Positions 1 through 7,298 of a stretch of 7,298 nt of DNA are shown piece after piece (within the stretch, counting starts at the first letter, position 1; every line of letters begins with the position of its first letter). Position numbers and translations under genes: made by a program. This DNA is from a virus (taxonomy: Duplodnaviria; Heunggongvirae; Uroviricota; Caudoviricetes), in the IMG/VR virus record IMGVR_UViG_2695420372_000001, positions 1 through 7,298 of that record; one strand, given 5' to 3'. Under the pieces are notes generated by a model. It saw only the letters and a list, made by a program, of their open reading frames with translations, searched no databases and was not told where the DNA came from.

Positions 1-300
1 GAAGAGGATTTTCCTGCGATCGCGGTTTATCTGACGGATGCAGAGTATACCGGTGAAGAGCTGGATGCAGATACCTGGCGGGCCACGCTGCATATTGAGG
101 TGTTTTTACCGGCACAGGTACCGGATTCAGAGCTTGATCAGTGGATGGAAAGCCGGATTTACCCGGCGATGACCGCGATCCCGGCACTGGCAGGACTGAT
201 TACCACGATGGTTACGCAGGGCTATGAGTATCGTCGTGATGACGATATGGCGTTATGGAGTTCTGCGGATCTGACTTATTCCATTACATACGAGATGTGA
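1..300 (+). CDS. U: Tail terminator protein (lambda gpU-like), 5' partial; start lies upstream of the window
   Basis: Frame 1 is open from base 1 to TGA at 298-300. Translation ([99 protein letters not shown]) matches the C-terminal part of lambda gpU as I recall it. Sits immediately upstream of V, as in lambda. Confidence 0.88.
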
Positions 301-307
301 GGACGAT

Positions 308-1054
308 ATGTCAACACCAAATCCCCTTGAGCCGGTAAAAGGTGCCGGTACCACCCTGTGGGTTTATAACGGTCAGGGTGACGCCTATGCAAACCCGTTG
401 TCAGACGATGACTGGCAGCGACTGGCTAAGGTGAAGGATCTGACGCCGGGCGAGATGACGGCAGAACCCTACGATGATAACTACCTGGATGATGAAGACG
501 CGGACTGGAGCGCGACCGGGCAGGGGCAGAAGTCTGCAGGAGATACCAGTTTTACGCTGGCCTGGAAACCGGGAGAAGAAGGTCAGAAAGGGCTTATAGG
601 CTGGTTTGAAAGCGGCGATGTCCGGGCCTATAAAATCCGTTTTCCGAATGGCACGGTGGATGTGTTTCGTGGCTGGGTCAGCAGTATCGGTAAGGCCGTG
701 ACGGCGAAAGAAGTGATCACCCGCACGGTGAAAGTCACTAACGTGGGTAAACCTTCTGTAGCGGAAGAACGCAGCAAAATTACGCCGGTCACTGCGATTA
801 AGGTAACGCCGACAGGTACGGTTGAAAAAGGGAAAACAACCACCCTGACCGTTACTGTGGAACCGGAAAATGCAACGGATAAGACATTCAGGGCGATTTC
901 CGCCGATCCATCAAAAGCCACCATTAGCGTGAAAGATATGACGATTACTGTGACGGGGGTTAAGGATGGAAAAGTCAGCATCCCTGTGATTTCCGGTAAT
1001 GGTCAGTTTGCTGCGGTGGCTGAAATTACCGTTAATAATGTGCCGGGTGGCTAA
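308..1054 (+). CDS. V: Major tail tube protein (lambda gpV-like), 248 aa, with C-terminal Ig-like domain
   Basis: ORF 308..1054. N-terminus [49 protein letters not shown] closely resembles lambda gpV (246 aa). GAGGA at 299-303 precedes the ATG at 308. Position between U and G matches lambda. Confidence 0.95.
776..1039 (+). other. C-terminal Ig-like (Big_2-type) domain of the major tail protein (approx. residues 157-244)
   Basis: Thr/Val-rich beta-strand pattern ([86 protein letters not shown]) typical of bacterial Ig-like group 2 domains. Lambda gpV is known to carry such a domain. Boundaries are approximate. Confidence 0.7.
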
Positions 1055-1072
1055 AGAGCTGAGAGATAAGCG

Positions 1073-1504
1073 ATGTTCCTGAAAACAGAACAATTTGAAT
1101 ATAACGGTGTATCCGTCACGCTTTCTGAGCTGTCTGCGCTGCAGCGTATTGAGCATCTTGCCCTCCTGAAACGGCGGGCAGAAGAGGCTGAAGCCAGCGG
1201 CAACCTGCAGGTGAGTGTGGAAGATCTTGTCAGAACCGGCGCGTTTCTGGTGGCGATGTCCCTGTGGCATAACCATCCACAGAAAACGCAGTCACCGTCA
1301 ATGAATGAGGCCGTGATGAAGATAGAGCAGGAAGTGCTCACCACCTGGCCTGCCGATGCCATTGCCCGGGCGGAAGACGTGGTGTTGTGCTTGTCCGGGA
1401 TGATCGAAGCTGTTCGTCCGGATACTGATATTACTGAAGTGGCGAAAAATAACACGCTGACTGATGATGATTTTTCTGCGGGAAAGTCTTCGACGGCGAG
1501 CTGA
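1073..1504 (+). CDS. G: Tail assembly chaperone (lambda gpG-like), 143 aa
   Basis: ORF 1073..1504. MFLKTEQFEYNGVSVTLSELSALQRIEHLALLKRRAEEAEA... and ...GAFLVAMSLWHNHPQKTQSPSMNEAVMKIEQEVLTTWP match lambda gpG as recalled. Located between V and H. Confidence 0.93.
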   Translation: MFLKTEQFEYNGVSVTLSELSALQRIEHLALLKRRAEEAEASGNLQVSVEDLVRTGAFLVAMSLWHNHPQKTQSPSMNEAVMKIEQEVLTTWPADAIARAEDVVLCLSGMIEAVRPDTDITEVAKNNTLTDDDFSAGKSSTAS

Positions 1505-1944
1505 ACTTTGCCCTCAGACTGGCGCGTGAGATGGGGAGACCCGACTGGCGCGCCATGCTTGCCGGGATGACATCCACCGAATATGCCGACTGGCACCGTT
1601 TTTACCGCACGCATTATTTTCAGGATACCCAGCTGGATATGCATTTTTCCGGGCTGACGTACGCTGTACTCAGCCTGTTTTTTTGCGATCCGGATATGCA
1701 TCCCTCTGATTTCAGTCTGCTTGTCCCCCGGCATGAGGAAGAGCAGGTGGAGAGGCCGGATGAGGACAAAATGCTGATGCAGAAAGCGGCAGGACTTGCC
1801 GGAGGCGTCCGGTTCGGTGGGGACGGAGGGCGCGATATTTTATCGTCTGCGGATGTGGCGGATGTCATGGTGGATGATGCCGCATTAATGATGGCTTCAG
1901 CGGGGATTCCGGGAGGTGTGAGATATGTCCCAGCCGGTTGGTGA
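1073..1944 (+). CDS. G-T: Tail assembly chaperone G-T fusion, made by programmed -1 ribosomal frameshift at 1480-1486 (joins 1073..1486 with -1 frame 1486..1944)
   Basis: Slippery heptamer G_GGA_AAG lies at 1480-1486 in the G frame. The -1 frame is open from there (VFDGELNFALRLAREMGRPDWRAMLAGMTSTEYADWHRFY...) to TGA at 1942-1944 and matches lambda gpT. The T frame has no convincing independent start or RBS. Confidence 0.85.
1480..1486 (+). other. -1 programmed ribosomal frameshift slippery heptamer GGGAAAG (G to G-T)
   Basis: Heptamer of form X_XXY_YYZ in the G frame, 6 codons before the G stop. Same sequence and relative position as the characterised lambda G/G-T recoding site. Confidence 0.85.
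1909..1913 (+). promoter_or_regulatory. Shine-Dalgarno (GGAGG) for the tape-measure gene
   Basis: GGAGG about 11 nt upstream of ATG 1925, lying inside the 3' end of the T reading frame. Confidence 0.6.
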
Positions 1945-4498
1945 TCTTGTTATTGACCTGAGTCTGGATGCTGTCCGTTTCGATGAGCAGATGAGCCGGG
2001 TAAGGCGTCATTTTTCAGGTCTGGATACCGACGCCAGAAAAACCGCCAGTGCTGTTGAACAGGGCCTGAGCCGCCAGGCGCTGGCTGCACAAAAAGCCGG
2101 GATTTCCGTCGGGCAGTATAAAGCGGCCATGCGAACCCTGCCCGCACAGTTTACGGATATCGCCACGCAGCTTGCCGGTGGTCAGAATCCCTGGCTGATC
2201 CTGCTGCAACAGGGCGGTCAGGTGAAGGACTCCTTCGGCGGGATGATCCCCATGTTCAGGGGGCTTGCCGGTGCGATCACCCTGCCGATGGTCGGGGTCA
2301 CCTCGCTGGCGGTGGCGACAGGTGCGCTGGTGTACGCCTGGTACCAGGGAGATTCCACGCTTTCAGCGTTTAATAAAACCCTGGTTCTTTCCGGTAATCA
2401 GTCCGGACTGACTGCCGATCGTATGCTGACTCTCTCAAGAGCCGGGCAGGCAGCAGGGCTGACGTTTAACCAGGCGAGAGAGTCACTGGCAGCCCTGGTG
2501 AATGCTGGTGTGCGTGGTGGTGAACAGTTTGATGCCATCAACCAGAGTGTCGCGCGTTTTGCGTCTGCATCCGGTGTGGAGGTGGATAAAGTCGCTGAAG
2601 CCTTCGGGAAGCTGACCACTGACCCGACGTCGGGACTGATGGCGATGGCGCGCCAGTTCCGTAACGTGACGGCAGAGCAGATTGCGTATGTTGCACAGCT
2701 GCAGCGTTCCGGAGACGAGGCCGGGGCATTGCAGGCGGCGAACGATATCGCCACGAAAGGCTTTGATGAGCAGACCCGTCGCCTGAAAGAAAACATGGGA
2801 ACACTGGAGACCTGGGCGGATAAAACAGGGAAGGCATTCAAATCGATGTGGGATGCCATTCTGGATATCGGTCGTCCTGAATCCTCAGCGGATATGCTCG
2901 CCAGTGCGCAGAAGGCATTTGATGAGGCGGATAAAAAATGGCAGTGGTACCAGAGCCGGAGCCAGCGCCGGGGAAAGACCTCCTCTTTTCGTGCGAACCT
3001 TCAGGGGGCATGGGATGACAGGGAAAATGCCCGTCTGGGTCTGGCAGCGGCCACGCTGCAGTCGGATATGGAAAAAGCCGGTGAACTGGCGGCAAGGGAC
3101 CGGGCTGAGCGTGAGGCGTCACAGCTGAAGTATACCGGAGAGGCGCAGAAGGCGTATGAGCGCCTGCAGACGCCGCTGGATAAATATACCGCCCGTCAGA
3201 AAGAGCTGAATAAGGCCCTGAAAGACGGAAAAATCCTGCAGGCGGATTACAACACGCTGATGGCGTCGGCAAAAAAGGATTATGAATCGACGCTGAAAAA
3301 GCCGTCCGGTGTGAAGGTGTCTGCCGGTGAGCGCCAGGAAGACCGGGCGCATGCAGCCATGCTGGCGCTTGAAACCGAGCTCAGGACGCTGGAAAAACAC
3401 AGCGGTGTGAATGAGAAAATCAGCCAGCAGCGCCGGGATTTATGGGAAGCGGAAAATCAGTATGTGGTCCTGAAAGAGGCCGCCACGAAACGGCAGTTAT
3501 CTGAGCAGGAAAAATCCCTGCTGGCTCATGAGAAAGAGACGCTGGAGTACAAACGCCAGCTGGCTGAGCTGGGAGACAAGATTGAACACCAGAAGCGGCT
3601 GAATGAGCTGGCACAGCAGGCGGCGCGGTTTGAACAGCAGCAGAGCGCGAAGCAGGCGGCAATCAGCGCAAAAGCCCGCGGCCTCACTGACCGTCAGGCG
3701 CAGCGGGAGTCGGAAGAGCAGCGCCTTCGTGAGGTGTACGGTGATAATCCGGCTGCGCTGGCGAAGGCCACATCTGCACTGAAGAACACCTGGTCTGCGG
3801 AGGAGCAGCTTCGTGGAAGCTGGATGGCCGGGATGAAGTCCGGCTGGGGCGAGTGGGCGGAAAGTGCGACGGACAGTTTTTCGCAGGTTAAAAACGCGGC
3901 CACGCAGACCTTTGACGGTATTGCACAGAATATGGCAGCGATGCTGACCGGCAGCGAACAGAACTGGCGGGGATTCACCCGTTCGGTGCTCTCCATGCTG
4001 ACAGAAATTCTGCTTAAGCAGGCAATGGTGGGGATTGTCGGGAGTATCGGCAGCGCCATTGGCGGGGCTGTTGGTGGCGGCGCATCCGCGTCAGGCGGTA
4101 CAGCCATTCAGGCCGCTACGGCGAAATTCCATTTTGCAACCGGAGGATTTACGGGAACCGGCGGCAAATATGAGCCAGCGGGAATTGTTCACCGCGGTGA
4201 ATTCGTCTTCACGAAGGAGGCAACCAGCCGGATTGGCGTGGGGAATCTCTACCGGCTGATGCGCGGCTATGCCACCGGCGGTTATGTCGGTACACCGGGC
4301 AGCATGGCGGACAGCCGGTCGCAGGCGTCCGGGACGTTTGAGCAGAATAACCATGTGGTGATTAACAACGACGGCACGAACGGTCAGATAGGGCCACAGG
4401 CACTGAAGGCTGTTTATGACGTAGCCCGTAAGGCGGCAATGGATGTTGTGACCGGGCAGATGCGCGATGGTGGTCTGTTCTCCGGAGGTGGACGATGA
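1925..4498 (+). CDS. H: Tail tape measure protein (lambda gpH-like), 857 aa
   Basis: ORF 1925..4498. N-terminus MSQPVGDLVIDLSLDAVRFDEQMSRVRRHFSG, the internal ...GGQNPWLILLQQGGQVKDSFGGMIPMFRGLAGAITLPMVG... and the C-terminus ...MRDGGLFSGGGR match lambda gpH (853 aa) as recalled. Start overlaps the T stop by 20 nt; stop overlaps the M start (ATGA). Confidence 0.95.
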   Translation: MSQPVGDLVIDLSLDAVRFDEQMSRVRRHFSGLDTDARKTASAVEQGLSRQALAAQKAGISVGQYKAAMRTLPAQFTDIATQLAGGQNPWLILLQQGGQVKDSFGGMIPMFRGLAGAITLPMVGVTSLAVATGALVYAWYQGDSTLSAFNKTLVLSGNQSGLTADRMLTLSRAGQAAGLTFNQARESLAALVNAGVRGGEQFDAINQSVARFASASGVEVDKVAEAFGKLTTDPTSGLMAMARQFRNVTAEQIAYVAQLQRSGDEAGALQAANDIATKGFDEQTRRLKENMGTLETWADKTGKAFKSMWDAILDIGRPESSADMLASAQKAFDEADKKWQWYQSRSQRRGKTSSFRANLQGAWDDRENARLGLAAATLQSDMEKAGELAARDRAEREASQLKYTGEAQKAYERLQTPLDKYTARQKELNKALKDGKILQADYNTLMASAKKDYESTLKKPSGVKVSAGERQEDRAHAAMLALETELRTLEKHSGVNEKISQQRRDLWEAENQYVVLKEAATKRQLSEQEKSLLAHEKETLEYKRQLAELGDKIEHQKRLNELAQQAARFEQQQSAKQAAISAKARGLTDRQAQRESEEQRLREVYGDNPAALAKATSALKNTWSAEEQLRGSWMAGMKSGWGEWAESATDSFSQVKNAATQTFDGIAQNMAAMLTGSEQNWRGFTRSVLSMLTEILLKQAMVGIVGSIGSAIGGAVGGGASASGGTAIQAATAKFHFATGGFTGTGGKYEPAGIVHRGEFVFTKEATSRIGVGNLYRLMRGYATGGYVGTPGSMADSRSQASGTFEQNNHVVINNDGTNGQIGPQALKAVYDVARKAAMDVVTGQMRDGGLFSGGGR

Positions 4499-4671
4499 AA
4501 ACCTTCCGCTGGAAAGTGAAACCCGGTATGGATGTGGCTTCGGCCCCTTCTGTAAGAAAGGTGCGCTTTGGTGATGGTTATTTCCAGCGAGCGCCTGCCG
4601 GGCTGAATGCCAACCTGAAAACGTACAGCGTGACGCTTTCTGTCCCCCGTGAGGAGGCCACGGTACTGGAG
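3410..4671 (+). repeat. Direct repeat copy A (gpH 3' portion + first 59 codons of gpM); homologous to 4683-5944
   Basis: Aligns to 4683-5944 at constant offset +1273 with no indels. 3999-4671 appears identical to 5272-5944; 3410-3998 is diverged (many substitutions, mostly at synonymous or conservative positions). Confidence 0.9.
4495..4671 (+). CDS. M: Minor tail protein (lambda gpM-like) 5' fragment, 59 codons, truncated by the N gap
   Basis: ATG at 4495 overlaps the H stop (ATGA). MKTFRWKVKPGMDVASAPSVRKVRFGDGYFQRAPAGLNANLKTYSVTLSVPREEATVLE is identical to the first 59 residues of the complete M at 5768. The reading frame runs into the N run at 4672. Confidence 0.75.
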
Positions 4672-4682
4672 NNNNNNNNNNN
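4672..4682. other. Run of 11 N (assembly or scaffold gap, or masked bases)
   Basis: Literal n characters in the sequence. They sit exactly at the junction between the two repeat copies. Confidence 0.99.
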
Positions 4683-5771
4683 AATGAGAAAATCAGCCAG
4701 CAGCGCCGGGATTTGTGGAAGGCGGAGAGTCAGTTCGCGGTACTGGAGGAGGCGGCGCAACGTCGCCAGCTGTCTGCACAGGAGAAATCCCTGCTGGCGC
4801 ATAAAGATGAGACGCTGGAGTACAAACGCCAGCTGGCTGCACTTGGCGACAAGGTTACGTATCAGGAGCGCCTGAACGCGCTGGCGCAGCAGGCGGATAA
4901 ATTCGCACAGCAGCAACGGGCAAAACGGGCCGCCATTGATGCGAAAAGCCGGGGGCTGACTGACCGGCAGGCAGAACGGGAAGCCACGGAACAGCGCCTG
5001 AAGGAACAGTATGGCGATAATCCGCTGGCGCTGAATAACATCATGTCAGAGCAGAAAAAGACCTGGGCGGCTGAAGACCAGCTTCGCGGGAACTGGATGG
5101 CAGGCCTGAAGTCCGGCTGGAGTGAGTGGGAAGAGAGCGCCACGGACAGTATGTCGCAGGTAAAAAGTGCAGCCACGCAGACCTTTGATGGTATTGCACA
5201 GAATATGGCGGCGATGCTGACCGGCAGTGAGCAGAACTGGCGCAGCTTCACCCGTTCCGTGCTGTCCATGATGACAGAAATTCTGCTTAAGCAGGCAATG
5301 GTGGGGATTGTCGGGAGTATCGGCAGCGCCATTGGCGGGGCTGTTGGTGGCGGCGCATCCGCGTCAGGCGGTACAGCCATTCAGGCCGCTACGGCGAAAT
5401 TCCATTTTGCAACCGGAGGATTTACGGGAACCGGCGGCAAATATGAGCCAGCGGGAATTGTTCACCGCGGTGAATTCGTCTTCACGAAGGAGGCAACCAG
5501 CCGGATTGGCGTGGGGAATCTCTACCGGCTGATGCGCGGCTATGCCACCGGCGGTTATGTCGGTACACCGGGCAGCATGGCGGACAGCCGGTCGCAGGCG
5601 TCCGGGACGTTTGAGCAGAATAACCATGTGGTGATTAACAACGACGGCACGAACGGTCAGATAGGGCCACAGGCACTGAAGGCTGTTTATGACGTAGCCC
5701 GTAAGGCGGCAATGGATGTTGTGACCGGGCAGATGCGCGATGGTGGTCTGTTCTCCGGAGGTGGACGATGA
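4683..5771 (+). CDS. H: Tail tape measure protein (gpH) 3' fragment, second allele, 5' end cut by the gap; about 362 codons
   Basis: Open frame from 4683 (NEKISQQRRDLWKAESQFAVLEEAAQRRQLSAQEKSLLAHKDETLEYKRQLAALGDKVTYQERLNALAQQ...) to TGA at 5769-5771. Homologous to H residues ~496-857 of the first copy. The ORF track calls it from a TTG at 4713, but the frame is open back to the gap. Confidence 0.8.
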   Translation, partial: NEKISQQRRDLWKAESQFAVLEEAAQRRQLSAQEKSLLAHKDETLEYKRQLAALGDKVTYQERLNALAQQADKFAQQQRAKRAAIDAKSRGLTDRQAEREATEQRLKEQYGDNPLALNNIMSEQKKTWAAEDQLRGNWMAGLKSGWSEWEESATDSMSQVKSAATQTFDGIAQNMAAMLTGSEQNWRSFTRSVLSMMTEILLKQAMVGIVGSIGSAIGGAVGGGASASGGTAIQAATAKFHFATGGFTGTGGKYEPAGIVHRGEFVFTKEATSRIGVGNLYRLMRGYATGGYVGTPGSMADSRSQASGTFEQNNHVVINNDGTNGQIGPQALKAVYDVARKAAMDVVTGQMRDGGLFSGGGR

Positions 5772-5944
5772 AAACCTTCCGCTGGAAAGTGAAACCCGGT
5801 ATGGATGTGGCTTCGGCCCCTTCTGTAAGAAAGGTGCGCTTTGGTGATGGTTATTTCCAGCGAGCGCCTGCCGGGCTGAATGCCAACCTGAAAACGTACA
5901 GCGTGACGCTTTCTGTCCCCCGTGAGGAGGCCACGGTACTGGAG
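4683..5944 (+). repeat. Direct repeat copy B (gpH 3' portion + 5' part of gpM); homologous to 3410-4671
   Basis: See copy A. Begins immediately after the N run. Confidence 0.9.
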
Positions 5945-6097
5945 TCGTTTCTGGCTGAGCACGGGGGCTGGAAAGCCTTTCTGTGGACGCCGCCTTATGA
6001 GTGGCGGCAGATAAAGGTGACCTGCGCAAAATGGTCGTCGCGGGTCAGTATGCTGCGTGTTGAGTTCAGCGCAGAGTTTGAACAGGTGGTTAACTGA
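5768..6097 (+). CDS. M: Minor tail protein (lambda gpM-like), 109 aa
   Basis: ORF 5768..6097. MKTFRWKVKPGMDVAS...FLWTPPYEWRQIKVTCAKWSSRVSMLRVEFSAEFEQVVN matches lambda gpM as recalled. GGAGG lies 7-11 nt upstream; start overlaps the H-fragment stop (ATGA). Confidence 0.95.
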   Translation: MKTFRWKVKPGMDVASAPSVRKVRFGDGYFQRAPAGLNANLKTYSVTLSVPREEATVLESFLAEHGGWKAFLWTPPYEWRQIKVTCAKWSSRVSMLRVEFSAEFEQVVN

Positions 6098-6795
6098 TGC
6101 AGGATATCCGGCAGGAAACACTGAATGAATGCACCCGTGCGGAGCAGTCGGCCAGCGTGGTGCTCTGGGAAATCGACCTGACAGAGGTCGGTGGAGAACG
6201 TTATTTTTTCTGTAATCAGCAGAACGAAAAAGGTGAGCCGGTCACCTGGCAGGGGCGACAGTATCAGCCGTATCCCATTCAGGGGAGTGGTTTTGAACTG
6301 AATGGCAAAGGCACCAGTACGCGCCCCACGCTGGCAGTCTCTAACCTGTACGGCATGGTCACCGGGATGGCGGAAGATCTGCAGAGTCTGGTCGGCGGAA
6401 CGGTGGTCCGGCGTAAGGTTTATGCCCGTTTTCTGGATGCAGTGAACTTCGTCAACGGAAACAGCGACGCCGATCCGGAGCAGGAGGTGATCAGCCGCTG
6501 GCGCATCGAGCAGTGCAGCGAACTGAGCGCGGTGAGTGCCTCCTTTGTACTGTCCACGCCGACTGAAACGGATGGCGCTGTTTTTCCGGGTCGTATCATG
6601 CTGGCCAACACCTGCACCTGGACCTATCGCGGCGATGAGTGCGGTTATCACGGTCCGGCTGTCGCGGATGAATATGACCAGCCGACGTCCGATATCACGA
6701 AGGATAAATGCAGCAAATGCCTGAGTGGCTGTAAGTTCCGCAATAATGTCGGCAACTTTGGCGGCTTCCTTTCCATTAACAAACTTTCGCAGTAA
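6097..6795 (+). CDS. L: Minor tail (tip) protein (lambda gpL-like), 232 aa, with C-terminal cysteine cluster
   Basis: ORF 6097..6795. MQDIRQETLNECTRAEQSASVVLWEIDLTEVGGERYFFCN... matches lambda gpL (232 aa) as recalled. Start overlaps the M stop (ATGA at 6094-6099). C-terminal Cys at residues 173, 182, 205, 208 and 212. Confidence 0.95.
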   Translation: MQDIRQETLNECTRAEQSASVVLWEIDLTEVGGERYFFCNQQNEKGEPVTWQGRQYQPYPIQGSGFELNGKGTSTRPTLAVSNLYGMVTGMAEDLQSLVGGTVVRRKVYARFLDAVNFVNGNSDADPEQEVISRWRIEQCSELSAVSASFVLSTPTETDGAVFPGRIMLANTCTWTYRGDECGYHGPAVADEYDQPTSDITKDKCSKCLSGCKFRNNVGNFGGFLSINKLSQ

Positions 6796-6800
6796 ATCCC

Positions 6801-7298
6801 ATGACAGAGACAGAATCAGCGATTCTGGCGCACGCCCGGCGATGTGCGCCAGCGGAGTCGTGCGGCTTCGTGGTGAGAACGCCGGAAGGGGAAAGATATT
6901 TTCCCTGTGTGAATATCTCCGGTGAGCCGGAGGCGTATTTCCGTATGGCTCCGGAGGACTGGCTGCAGGCAGAGATGCAGGGTGAGATTGTGGCGCTGGT
7001 CCACAGTCACCCCGGTGGTCTGCCCTGGCTGAGTGAGGCCGACCGGCGGCTGCAGGTGCAGAGTGATTTGCCGTGGTGGCTGGTCTGCCGGGGGGCGATT
7101 CACAAGTTCCGCTGTGTGCCGCATCTCACCGGGCGGCGCTTTGAGCACGGGGTGACGGACTGTTACACGCTGTTCCGGGATGCTTATCATCTGGCGGGGA
7201 TTGAGATGCCGGATTTTCATCGCGAGGATGACTGGTGGCGTCACGGTCAGAATCTCTATCTGGATAATCTGGAGGCCACAGGGCTGTATCAGGTGCCG
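6801..7298 (+). CDS. K: Tail assembly protein (lambda gpK-like), 3' partial (166 codons, runs off window); JAB/MPN and NlpC/P60 motifs
   Basis: ATG at 6801, frame open to the window end. MTETESAILAHARRCAPAESCGFVV...EIVALVHSHPGGLPWLSEADRRLQVQSDLPWWLVCRG...GVTDCYTLFRDAYHLAGIEMPDFHREDDWWRHGQNLYLDNLEATGLYQVP matches lambda gpK as recalled. Absent from the ORF track only because no stop lies in the window. Confidence 0.92.
   Translation, partial: MTETESAILAHARRCAPAESCGFVVRTPEGERYFPCVNISGEPEAYFRMAPEDWLQAEMQGEIVALVHSHPGGLPWLSEADRRLQVQSDLPWWLVCRGAIHKFRCVPHLTGRRFEHGVTDCYTLFRDAYHLAGIEMPDFHREDDWWRHGQNLYLDNLEATGLYQVP

What the first reader, a model, noticed from the sequence alone, without database searches (positions are those of the whole stretch)
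3410..3998. Two equal-length alleles of the central tape-measure segment with an abrupt switch to sequence identity
The two H copies code the same ~196-residue segment with no length change but substantial amino-acid divergence, roughly a quarter of residues by eye. Example: copy A DLWEAENQYVVLKEAATKRQLSEQEKSLLAHEKETLEYKRQLAELGDKIEHQKRLNELAQQAARFEQQQSAK versus copy B DLWKAESQFAVLEEAAQRRQLSAQEKSLLAHKDETLEYKRQLAALGDKVTYQERLNALAQQADKFAQQQRAK. Nucleotide divergence stops sharply near 3998/5271, after which the copies are identical through the H C-terminus and into M. That sharp boundary is what a homologous-recombination mosaic junction between co-resident lambdoid phages looks like. Strict length conservation fits the tape measure's ruler function. 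The diverged stretch is charged and Q/E/K/R/A-rich, consistent with a coiled-coil-like ruler segment.
Basis: seen in the sequence. Interest (0 to 1): 0.5.

Follow-up and report, generated by a model that had tools for sequence, protein, structure and literature searches.

The report
Scaffold-gap false duplication of lambda tape-measure gene
The "two copies" of the phage tail tape-measure gene are two assembly contigs from different lambda-like prophages stitched in series across an 11-N scaffold gap, so the tandem arrangement is an artefact and the sharp identity switch is an ordinary, recurrent lambdoid mosaic boundary.

Summary
Window 3410-3998 and 4683-5271 align without gaps at 76% nucleotide identity (46 of 197 residues differ), followed by 673 identical bases. 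Copy A ends at the last base before it and copy B starts at the first base after it. Deleting 4672-5944 restores, base for base, a normal U-V-G-T-H-M-L-K prophage found in several independent assemblies. No finished E. coli genome and no public contig has the M'-'H junction. Allele B is phage lambda's own H sequence (99.8%). Allele A belongs to another lambdoid lineage (PhiR12-like). The two are anciently diverged (dS ~1.2, omega 0.125). A related scaffold (L093) chains three H fragments across single-N gaps. It shows that copy B equals a co-resident lambda-type prophage up to the boundary and the A-type prophage after it. So copy B is either a chimeric assembly path through a 119-nt exact match or a very recent recombinant; reads are needed to decide. 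Across 86 related loci the boundary (~3940-3998, near the gpH*/gpHC split) is a recurrent mosaic junction. This is ordinary biology plus an assembly artefact, so interest is low.

The parts
1..300 (+). 3' part of gpU (tail terminator), cut by the window start
   Evidence: Window 1-4671 = L002 8077-12747 at 100%. L002 gene 7981-8376 carries PF06141 Phage_tail_U.
308..1054 (+). gpV major tail protein (248 aa)
   Evidence: ORF. The identical L002 gene carries PF16461 and Big_2.
1073..1944 (+). gpG (1073-1504) and gpT (1531-1944) tail assembly chaperones, with GGGAAAG heptamer at 1480
   Evidence: ORFs. PF06894 and PF06223 on the identical L002 genes. Heptamer found.
1925..4498 (+). Complete tape-measure gene H (857 aa), 'A-type'
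   Evidence: Pfam TMP_2 at residues 54-256 and Tape_meas_lam_C at 631-705. Aligns end to end with lambda gpH, PDB 8iyk_H. The exact protein occurs on at least 24 other contigs, always as a single gene before M-L-K.
3410..3998 (+). Allele A of the central H segment (H residues 496-692)
   Evidence: 99.2% to PhiR12 phages. 100% in L002-L008, L013 and L014. 76.1% to allele B.
3999..4671 (+). First copy of the shared block (H C-terminus = roughly gpHC, plus the first 59 codons of M). This is the overhang of contig 1 into the repeat.
   Evidence: 0 mismatches to 5272-5944. M' hits PF05939 positions 1-57 of 108 only.
4672..4682 (.). Run of 11 N: scaffold gap joining two contigs
   Evidence: The only non-ACGT stretch in the window. 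It sits exactly between the repeat units.
4683..5271 (+). Allele B of the central H segment and 5' end of contig 2. It is a lambda-type sequence and a fragment with no start codon.
   Evidence: 99.8% to lambda J02459 12015-12603 and 100% to phage Chlobot. It starts at the first base of the maximal 32-nt exact match between lambda-type and A-type H. The same sequence continues 500 nt further upstream in L093.
5272..5944 (+). Second copy of the shared block (H C-terminus plus 5' part of M)
   Evidence: Identical to 3999-4671. It carries the A-type state at all 7 sites where the lambda-type prophage of L093 differs.
5768..7298 (+). gpM (5768-6097), gpL (6097-6795), 5' part of gpK (from ~6801, cut by the window end)
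   Evidence: ORFs. PF05939 full length. Window 5945-7298 = L002 12748-14101 with 0 mismatches, directly contiguous with the end of contig 1 in L002.

Best explanation
The window is a scaffold made of two contigs joined by 11 N.

Contig 1 (1-4671) is a lambdoid prophage tail module, U'-V-G-T-H-M', of the 'A-type'. Contig 2 (4683-7298) starts in mid-H with a lambda/434-type central arm. From 5272 on it continues as sequence identical to the A-type prophage (H C-terminus, M, L, K').

The sequenced sample held at least two related lambdoid prophages. The assembler could not resolve them because they share long exact matches, and the scaffolder laid the two alternative paths through the same locus end to end. 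The result is a gap-flanked false duplication, not a tandem gene pair.

The two 589-nt arms are genuine, anciently diverged, functional alleles of the helical C-terminal part of gpH*. The switch at 3998/5271 is where both lineages enter a 119-nt exact match at the start of the conserved hydrophobic/Gly-rich gpHC region. That point is a recurrent homologous-recombination junction among lambdoid H genes.

Shown: the gap, the absence of the junction elsewhere, the exact restoration of a known prophage on deleting 4672-5944, the allele identities, and the population-level junction.

Inferred: the assembly mechanism. Also inferred, and only weakly favoured, is that copy B's downstream identity is an assembly path crossing from the lambda-type prophage into the A-type prophage rather than a separate piece of DNA.
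For: (1) The N run at 4672-4682 sits exactly between the repeat units.
(2) Window 1-4671 plus 5945-7298 equals L002 (complete chromosome CP170299.1) 8077-14101 with 0 mismatches and no break. The same holds for L005 across that whole path, and for L006 and L008 over window 1-4671.
(3) The full window maps onto ~6,025 nt (7298 minus 1273) in finished E. coli genomes; 3,681 genomes cover at least 80% of it. The one ~7.3-kb hit owes its length to an ISEc31 insertion in gpU, not to a duplication.
(4) The junction pattern M'..N{0,30}..'H gives 0 hits in genome, viral and metagenome contigs.
(5) The exact H protein is on at least 24 contigs, and in all 7 places shown it is a single gene before M-L-K-I-J.
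(6) Contig 2 begins at the first base of a maximal 32-nt exact match between lambda-type and A-type H. The chance of that for a random breakpoint is ~0.5%.
(7) dS 1.20 in the arms against 0 differences over 673 nt cannot arise by in-place divergence of a duplication.
(8) Two independent scaffolds show the same pathology: L085 (H-M-L' N 'H-M-L-K) and L093 (three H fragments across two single-N gaps).
(9) In L093 the lambda-type prophage contig is identical to copy B over the B arm plus 500 nt upstream. It then differs at exactly the 7 lambda-vs-A sites.
(10) A gap between duplicated pairs on one scaffold is a listed hallmark of false duplications (PMC9516828).
Against: No reads are available, so depth and read-pair support cannot be checked. 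The 'B arm + A-type C-terminus' contig was assembled in two records with different contig ends (the window and L093). That could mean it is read-supported and real. Similar natural combinations exist: phage 434 at 98.7% and E. coli Z1322HEC0001 at 99.0%. The end of contig 1 at 4671 does not fall on an exact-match boundary; it is 10 nt short of one. The assembler and the meaning of exactly 11 N are unknown.
Confidence: 0.88

Rival explanations
1. The tandem layout is an artefact, but copy B is real DNA. The strain carries another H gene (a further prophage, or a recombinant subpopulation). Its lambda-type central arm was joined to the A-type gpHC-M-L-K block by very recent homologous recombination or gene conversion between co-resident prophages.
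For: The same B-arm-to-A-type contig appears in the window and in L093 with different ends, alongside separate B-to-lambda-type and A-to-A-type contigs. Only 121 nt separate the last B-specific variant (5271) from the first A-private variant (5391), so single reads could have supported the link. B-arm plus A-like C-terminus combinations are common in nature (P0003 cluster of 5,299 members, phage 434 at 98.7%). The boundary is a recurrent junction. E. coli genomes that match this H/M unit carry a median of 2 and up to 8 matching places.
Against: The exact 156-nt diagnostic string occurs only in L093, which is itself a gapped scaffold, and never in an ungapped record. No finished genome has the copy-B unit above 99.0%. 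The B arm is 100% identical to one co-resident prophage and the remainder is 100% identical to the other. That is exactly what a path switch inside a 119-nt exact match produces. The reciprocal product (A arm plus lambda-type C-terminus) is not seen.
Confidence: 0.38
2. A genuine tandem partial duplication exists in one phage genome (H-M'-'H-M). It was created by illegitimate recombination between an A-type and a lambda-type phage, and the 11 N are merely masked or low-quality bases.
For: Both reading frames are intact up to their ends. A 1.27-kb insertion would still fit in a lambda-sized capsid (general knowledge, not tested).
Against: The junction is unsequenced (N) precisely where proof is needed. 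It is found nowhere else. Removing it restores a known prophage exactly. Copy B's 5' end coincides with an exact-match boundary (P ~0.005), and in L093 the same sequence continues 500 nt further upstream, so 4683 is an assembly end and not a recombination breakpoint.
Confidence: 0.03
3. The second allele comes from a different cell or from contaminating lambda-like phage DNA in the library (mixed culture or metagenome), not from a co-resident prophage.
For: Allele B is 99.8-100% identical to lambda and Chlobot. Lambda DNA turns up in unrelated records, for example a 'Campylobacter phage' record that is 99.8% lambda.
Against: Allele B differs from laboratory lambda by one base. In L093 it sits on an 8.2-kb contig with head genes that is not identical to lambda; its 500 nt upstream have 5 mismatches to lambda. 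Multiple lambdoid prophages per E. coli genome are the norm.
Confidence: 0.1

Closest known systems
Phage lambda tape measure protein gpH (J02459 / NC_001416 gene H, 853 aa; PDB 8IYK chain H)
   Same: The window H aligns end to end with it and has the same Pfam architecture and the same V-G-T-H-M-L-K synteny. Allele B is 99.8% identical to lambda 12015-12603.
   Different: The window's complete H (A-type) is 857 aa and is only ~70-88% identical to lambda in nucleotides across 3410-3998. Its indels relative to lambda lie at residues ~342-362 and ~460. Its last ~25 residues are of the 'DVARKAAMDVVTG' type rather than lambda's 'DMARKGARDEIQT'.
Lambdoid prophage in CP170299.1 (locus L002) and related draft contigs L005, L006, L008
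   Same: 100% nucleotide identity to window 1-4671 in all four. In L002 and L005 the 100% identity also continues contiguously through window 5945-7298.
   Different: They have one H and one M. They lack the N run and the 1,262-nt copy-B unit.
Phage 434 H-M region (OL657226) and E. coli Z1322HEC0001 prophage (L012)
   Same: They combine a lambda-type central arm with an A-like H C-terminus and M. Identity to the copy-B unit is 98.7% and 99.0%.
   Different: Not identical: L012 has 12 mismatches. Both lack the private variant giving 'IQAATAKF' that the two window copies share.
False 'heterotype' duplications next to scaffold gaps (Ko et al. 2022, Genome Biol 23:205, PMC9516828)
   Same: Two diverged versions of one locus are placed in series on one scaffold with a gap between them, and the arrangement is absent from better assemblies.
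   Different: That work concerns heterozygous diploid vertebrate genomes. Here the 'haplotypes' are paralogous prophages, or a mixture, in a bacterial sample. The read-depth criteria could not be tested.
Mosaic genome structure of lambdoid phages
   Same: Pairwise identity switches abruptly, and flanking modules reassort in the population.
   Different: Nothing essential. The junction here lies inside a gene, within PF09718 and near the gpH*/gpHC split, rather than at a gene boundary.

Membership tests
Lambda-family tail tape measure protein (gpH) | N-terminal TMP_2 (PF06791) and Tape_meas_lam_C (PF09718) domains | tested here: met
   H 1925-4498: PF06791 at 54-256 (E 3.7e-69) and PF09718 at 631-705 (E 1.1e-21). 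The copy-B fragment has PF09718 only.
Lambda-family tail tape measure protein (gpH) | Full-length homology to lambda gpH and position between G/T chaperones and M-L-K tip genes | tested here: met
   8iyk_H aligns 1-857 to 1-853, E = 0. Gene order shown.
Lambda-family tail tape measure protein (gpH) | Complete ORF with its own start codon (applied to 'copy B') | tested here: not met
   Copy B begins in frame at H residue 496 directly after the N run. It has no upstream sequence and only an internal TTG at 4713. No such gene product is on record.
Gap-flanked false duplication in a scaffolded assembly | Assembly gap between the duplicated pair on the same scaffold | tested here: met
   11 N at 4672-4682, flanked on both sides by the repeat units.
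Gap-flanked false duplication in a scaffolded assembly | Duplication absent from independent or finished assemblies of the same locus; removing it restores them | tested here: met
Gap-flanked false duplication in a scaffolded assembly | Copy-specific variants (heterotype) rather than read errors | tested here: met
   141 differences. Each arm matches a different natural phage lineage at 99% or more.
Gap-flanked false duplication in a scaffolded assembly | Reduced read depth and discordant read pairs over the duplicated copies | not testable with these tools
   No reads for the source assembly are available.
Genuine tandem segmental duplication | Contiguously sequenced novel junction | tested here: not met
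   The junction is N and is not found in any collection.
Genuine tandem segmental duplication | Divergence between copies compatible with divergence in place after the duplication | tested here: not met
   Two regimes: dS 1.20 over 589 nt, then 0 differences in 673 nt. P ~1e-80 under one rate.
Lambdoid homologous-recombination mosaic junction | Abrupt identity switch between independently sequenced phages at this position | tested here: met
   Lambda vs A-type: 24% divergence up to 3998, then a 119-nt exact match and dS 0.19. PhiR12 vs A-type: 0 mismatches in 3410-3936, then 122 mismatches in 3937-4498.
Lambdoid homologous-recombination mosaic junction | Flanking modules reassort in the population and breakpoints cluster | tested here: met
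   A-type arm is found with C-terminal blocks ~100, 99, 92 and 77% identical to the window's. 90 of 176 sharp-switch pairs break in 3850-3999. The pairs are not phylogenetically independent.
Lambdoid homologous-recombination mosaic junction | Exchange occurred between prophages co-resident in this very genome | tested here: inconclusive
   The L093 pattern fits either a chimeric assembly path or a recent recombinant. The diagnostic string is present only in gapped scaffolds.

The most novel reading that the evidence does not exclude
The ~3940-3998 boundary may be a genuine intragenic module boundary. It would coincide with the processing site that splits gpH into gpH* and gpHC, so that the C-terminal fragment (which binds gpI in the tip complex) is inherited together with M-L-K-I while the helical ruler/channel part is exchanged independently. 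In that case the source strain would have caught such an exchange between two co-resident prophages essentially in the act (copy B real, 100% identical to one parent on each side).
Probability: 0.3. Interest if true: 0.35.

Novelty: already known. Interest (0 to 1): 0.08.

Why it matters
Mainly as a caution. Taken at face value, the window suggests a phage with two tape-measure genes, or a caught-in-the-act recombination event. It is in fact a scaffold join, and H is a habitual contig-break point in draft E. coli assemblies; most of the closest database homologues are 'partial'. Gene-count, duplication or 'paralogue divergence' analyses on such scaffolds would be misled. The biology underneath is standard lambdoid mosaicism: two old H alleles and a recurrent junction just before the conserved hydrophobic/Gly-rich gpHC region. 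One mildly useful point is that the junction falls near the gpH*/gpHC split discussed in recent Ur-lambda structural work (PMC12617516). That is a testable reason why the C-terminal fragment travels with the tip genes.

Tried and rejected
(1) I looked for the source record or any other instance of the M'-'H junction using a gapped pattern. There were 0 hits in genome contigs, viral contigs and metagenome contigs. It is uncertain whether N in a subject sequence can match the pattern, so this does not prove the source is absent.

(2) An exact look-up of the 352-aa TTG-start ORF of copy B found nothing on record. I listed other possible starts but did not pursue them.

(3) I searched for an exact copy-B unit in finished E. 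coli genomes and cultured phages. The best matches were 99.0% and 98.7%, never 100%.

(4) A protein search with the copy-B fragment, looking for a full-length 'B arm + IQAATAKF' H on an ungapped contig, found none among the representatives shown. Clusters at 90% identity may hide one.

(5) I tested whether all contig ends sit on exact-match boundaries, as a simple de Bruijn graph would give. This holds for the start of contig 2. It does not hold exactly for the end of contig 1 (10 nt short), nor for the L093 piece ends (comparing with the match list). I therefore do not name an assembler or a k-mer size.

(6) The first MAFFT run of the 87-sequence alignment timed out. I repeated it with faster settings.

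(7) I considered and rejected two ideas. Copy B as a decaying pseudogene: it has no frame disruption and omega is 0.125. Divergence in place after a tandem duplication: the two-regime divergence rules it out.

(8) I did not run a dedicated coiled-coil predictor. Single-sequence AlphaFold2 only shows that both arms are predicted helical.
Full report
**1. What is in the window**

The + strand carries a lambda-type tail module:
- 3' end of U (1-300)
- V (308-1054)
- G (1073-1504)
- T (1531-1944)
- H (1925-4498, 857 aa)
- the first 59 codons of M (4495-4671)
- eleven N (4672-4682)
- an H fragment that starts in frame at H residue 496 and runs to the H stop (4683-5771)
- a complete M (5768-6097)
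- L (6097-6795)
- the start of K

**2. Checking the observation**

The ungapped alignment at offset 1273 covers 3410-4671 against 4683-5944. Key numbers:
- 141 mismatches, all between 3442 and 3998, giving 76.1% identity over 589 nt with no indels.
- 46 of 197 codons differ in amino acid, and 53 more differ only synonymously.
- The following 673 bases are identical, up to the N run.
- A two-rate model places the change point after 3998.
- At the diverged rate, 673 identical bases have probability ~1e-80.

Two qualifications apply. Divergence already tapers to ~3-13% in the last 100 nt before 3998. The identity also extends much further than "into M", as shown below.

**3. The tandem layout is a scaffold artefact**

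Copy A ends at the last base before the N run, and copy B begins at the first base after it.

Evidence from other assemblies:
- Window 1-4671 is 100% identical to L002 (complete chromosome CP170299.1), L005, L006 and L008. Window 5945-7298 is the directly contiguous continuation in L002, with 0 mismatches. Deleting 4672-5944 therefore restores a known prophage base for base.
- The exact 857-aa H protein occurs on at least 24 contigs. In all seven places shown it is a single gene followed by M-L-K-I-J.
- Against 5,426 finished E. coli genomes, the 7,298-nt query maps onto ~6,025 nt, which is 7,298 minus 1,273. The single ~7.3-kb hit (DEC5D) owes its length to an ISEc31 insertion in gpU and has one H.
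- A pattern for the M'-'H junction with 0-30 intervening bases finds nothing in the genome, viral or metagenome contig collections.

Evidence from the contig ends:
- Contig 2 begins exactly at the first base of the maximal 32-nt exact match between lambda-type and A-type H. The preceding base is A in lambda, Chlobot and Z1322, and G in the A-type.
- Only ~0.5% of positions in H-M are the first base of an exact match of 30 nt or more.
- In L093 the identical sequence continues 500 nt further upstream. Position 4683 is therefore an assembly end and not a biological breakpoint.

Ko et al. list a gap between duplicated pairs on one scaffold as a primary hallmark of false duplications (PMC9516828).

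The same pathology recurs in two other scaffolds. L085 is H-M-L', a single N, then 'H-M-L-K, with copies 85.9% identical. L093 chains three H fragments across two single-N gaps.

**4. What the two arms are**

Allele B (4683-5271) is 99.8% identical to lambda J02459 12015-12603 and 100% identical to phage Chlobot. Allele A is 99.2% identical to the PhiR12 phages and 100% identical in the L002-type prophages.

Nei-Gojobori estimates between the arms are dS 1.20, dN 0.15 and omega 0.125. These are old alleles, both under purifying selection. They are not the product of a recent duplication and not a decaying copy.

Single-sequence AlphaFold2 models predict both arms as almost entirely alpha-helical, with mean pLDDT 76.5 and 72.8. 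This fits a ruler-like helical region but does not demonstrate a coiled coil.

The segment corresponds to H residues 496-692 (lambda ~492-688). The boundary lies inside PF09718 (residues 631-705), just before the hydrophobic/Gly-rich stretch.

The Ur-lambda structural paper places the gpH*/gpHC cleavage roughly at residues 690-710, with a hydrophobic stretch at 691-712, and shows the C-terminus of gpHC bound to gpI (PMC12617516). The block that is identical in the window therefore corresponds roughly to gpHC plus the tip genes.

**5. The boundary is a real, recurrent mosaic junction in the population**

Two independently sequenced phages switch identity here:
- Lambda against the A-type H: ~24% divergence up to 3998, then a 119-nt exact match (3999-4117), then dS 0.19 for the rest of H.
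- PhiR12 against the A-type H: 8 mismatches in 1925-3409, none in 3410-3936, then 122 in 3937-4498.

In 86 related loci, A-type arms are combined with C-terminal blocks that are ~100, 99, 92 or 77% identical to the window's. Among 68 unique sequences, 176 pairs show a sharp switch, and 90 of these have the breakpoint in 3850-3999, peaking at 3940-3979. The pairs are not phylogenetically independent, so this shows clustering and does not count events.

Segment length is 589 nt in 81 of 86 loci, 610 nt in 3 and 586 nt in 2. The length differences among six full-length H proteins (853, 857 and 859 aa) lie upstream, at residues ~342-362 and ~460. Natural 612-aa H variants with a large in-frame deletion also exist. 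Length is therefore conserved but not strictly.

**6. Why copy B is identical to copy A after the boundary**

I built a 156-nt diagnostic string (5240-5395). It combines B-specific variants with the A-type private variant at 5391, which gives "IQAATAKF" where other sequences have "IQAAAAKF". It occurs in exactly one other record, L093, and in no genome or metagenome contig.

L093 has three pieces:
- Piece 1 is a lambda-type prophage contig running from head genes to H.
- Piece 2 equals window 2623-4561.
- Piece 3 equals window 4683-7075 plus 500 nt upstream.

Piece 1 has 0 mismatches to copy B over the B arm and the 500 nt upstream. After the boundary it differs at exactly seven sites (5391, 5456, 5468, 5474, 5477, 5522, 5582). 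At all seven, piece 1 has the lambda state and copy B has the A-type state.

Copy B is thus 100% one co-resident prophage on the left and 100% the other on the right, with the switch inside the 119-nt exact match. This has two possible explanations:
- A chimeric assembly path or collapsed repeat. In that case the "identity" is the same DNA written twice.
- A very recent real recombinant, either an extra prophage or a subpopulation.

In favour of the real recombinant:
- The contig was assembled in two records with different ends.
- Only 121 nt separate the linking variants.
- Similar combinations are common, for example phage 434 at 98.7%, Z1322HEC0001 at 99.0%, and the P0003 cluster of 5,299 members.

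In favour of the chimera:
- The exact combination appears only in gapped scaffolds.
- No finished genome has it.
- The reciprocal product is not seen.

I cannot decide between these without reads, and I lean slightly towards the assembly explanation.

**7. Verdict**

The sequence observation is confirmed. The exchange between co-resident prophages is unproven.

The biology (lambda-family tape measure gene, lambdoid mosaicism) is already known, and the tandem arrangement is not a real genomic feature.

Interest is low (0.08). The most novel surviving reading is a module boundary at the gpH*/gpHC split, with an exchange caught between co-resident prophages. I give it about 0.3 probability, and it would be of modest interest if true.

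Noticed in passing
window 4672-4682: A run of exactly 11 N, the only ambiguous bases in the window. It lies between a truncated M (59 codons) and a truncated H fragment.
   Followed up: yes
L093 (IMGVR_UViG_2695420863_000001) 1-13073; N at 8240 and 10180: A scaffold chaining three H fragments across two single-N gaps: a lambda-type prophage contig, an A-type piece identical to window 2623-4561, and a piece identical to window 4683-7075. It probably comes from the same or a very close strain as the window, assembled with different contig ends.
   Followed up: yes
L085 (IMGVR_UViG_2671180724_000001) N at 2998; copies 221-2997 and 2999-5787: An independent gap-flanked pseudo-tandem of lambdoid tail genes (H-M-L' N 'H-M-L-K), with the two copies 85.9% identical over 2.8 kb.
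   Followed up: partly
window 1480-1486: GGGAAAG heptamer near the end of G, 24 nt before its stop. This is the position of the lambda G/GT -1 programmed frameshift site. Two other GGGAAAG copies (2971, 6889) are presumably chance.
   Followed up: no
window 3994-4117 (H residues ~691-731); lambda residues ~688-727: The mosaic boundary coincides with the start of the hydrophobic/Gly-rich stretch and with the approximate gpH*/gpHC cleavage region described for Ur-lambda (PMC12617516). The identical block is therefore roughly gpHC plus the tip genes M-L-K.
   Followed up: partly
proteins P0001, P0002, P0017: H proteins from short draft contigs with in-frame internal tandem repeats of ~50-110 residues. 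In P0001, for example, 'NWRSFTRSVLSMM...GGKYEPAG' appears twice. They could be assembly artefacts or real lengthened tape measures; I did not test which.
   Followed up: no
proteins P0007, P0008, P0010: 612-aa H proteins with a ~241-residue in-frame internal deletion ('SSASGV|KVSAGDRQED'), on contigs up to 4.9 Mb. These are natural shortened tape measures, probably in defective prophages.
   Followed up: no
protein P0119: A 444-aa ORF fusing frameshifted H C-terminal sequence with M-like sequence (PF09718 + PF05939). It starts with 'MRKSASSAGICGRR', the same out-of-frame reading of the H arm that appears after the N run in window ORF 4495-4875.
   Followed up: no
L001 (E. coli O55:H7 DEC5D, NZ_CP038386.1) locus 3230-4443: An ISEc31 (IS3 family) insertion splits gpU in the finished genome closest to the window's left part (99.1%). 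That prophage is probably tail-defective.
   Followed up: no
phage collection hit H102 (MW057783.1 'Campylobacter phage CJLB-4', 48,361 nt): A record labelled as a Campylobacter phage matches lambda H at 99.8% at lambda-like coordinates, and a 'Xanthomonas' record also matches. These are probably lambda contamination or mislabelling in the public records.
   Followed up: no
loci L070, L090, L092 and others: In-frame length variants of the central H segment: 610 nt (+7 codons) in 3 loci and 586 nt (-1 codon) in 2 loci, against 589 nt in 81 loci.
   Followed up: partly
one search hit list: Most of the 120 best homologues of the H C-terminal fragment are annotated 'partial'. H is therefore a habitual contig-break point in draft E. 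coli assemblies.
   Followed up: no
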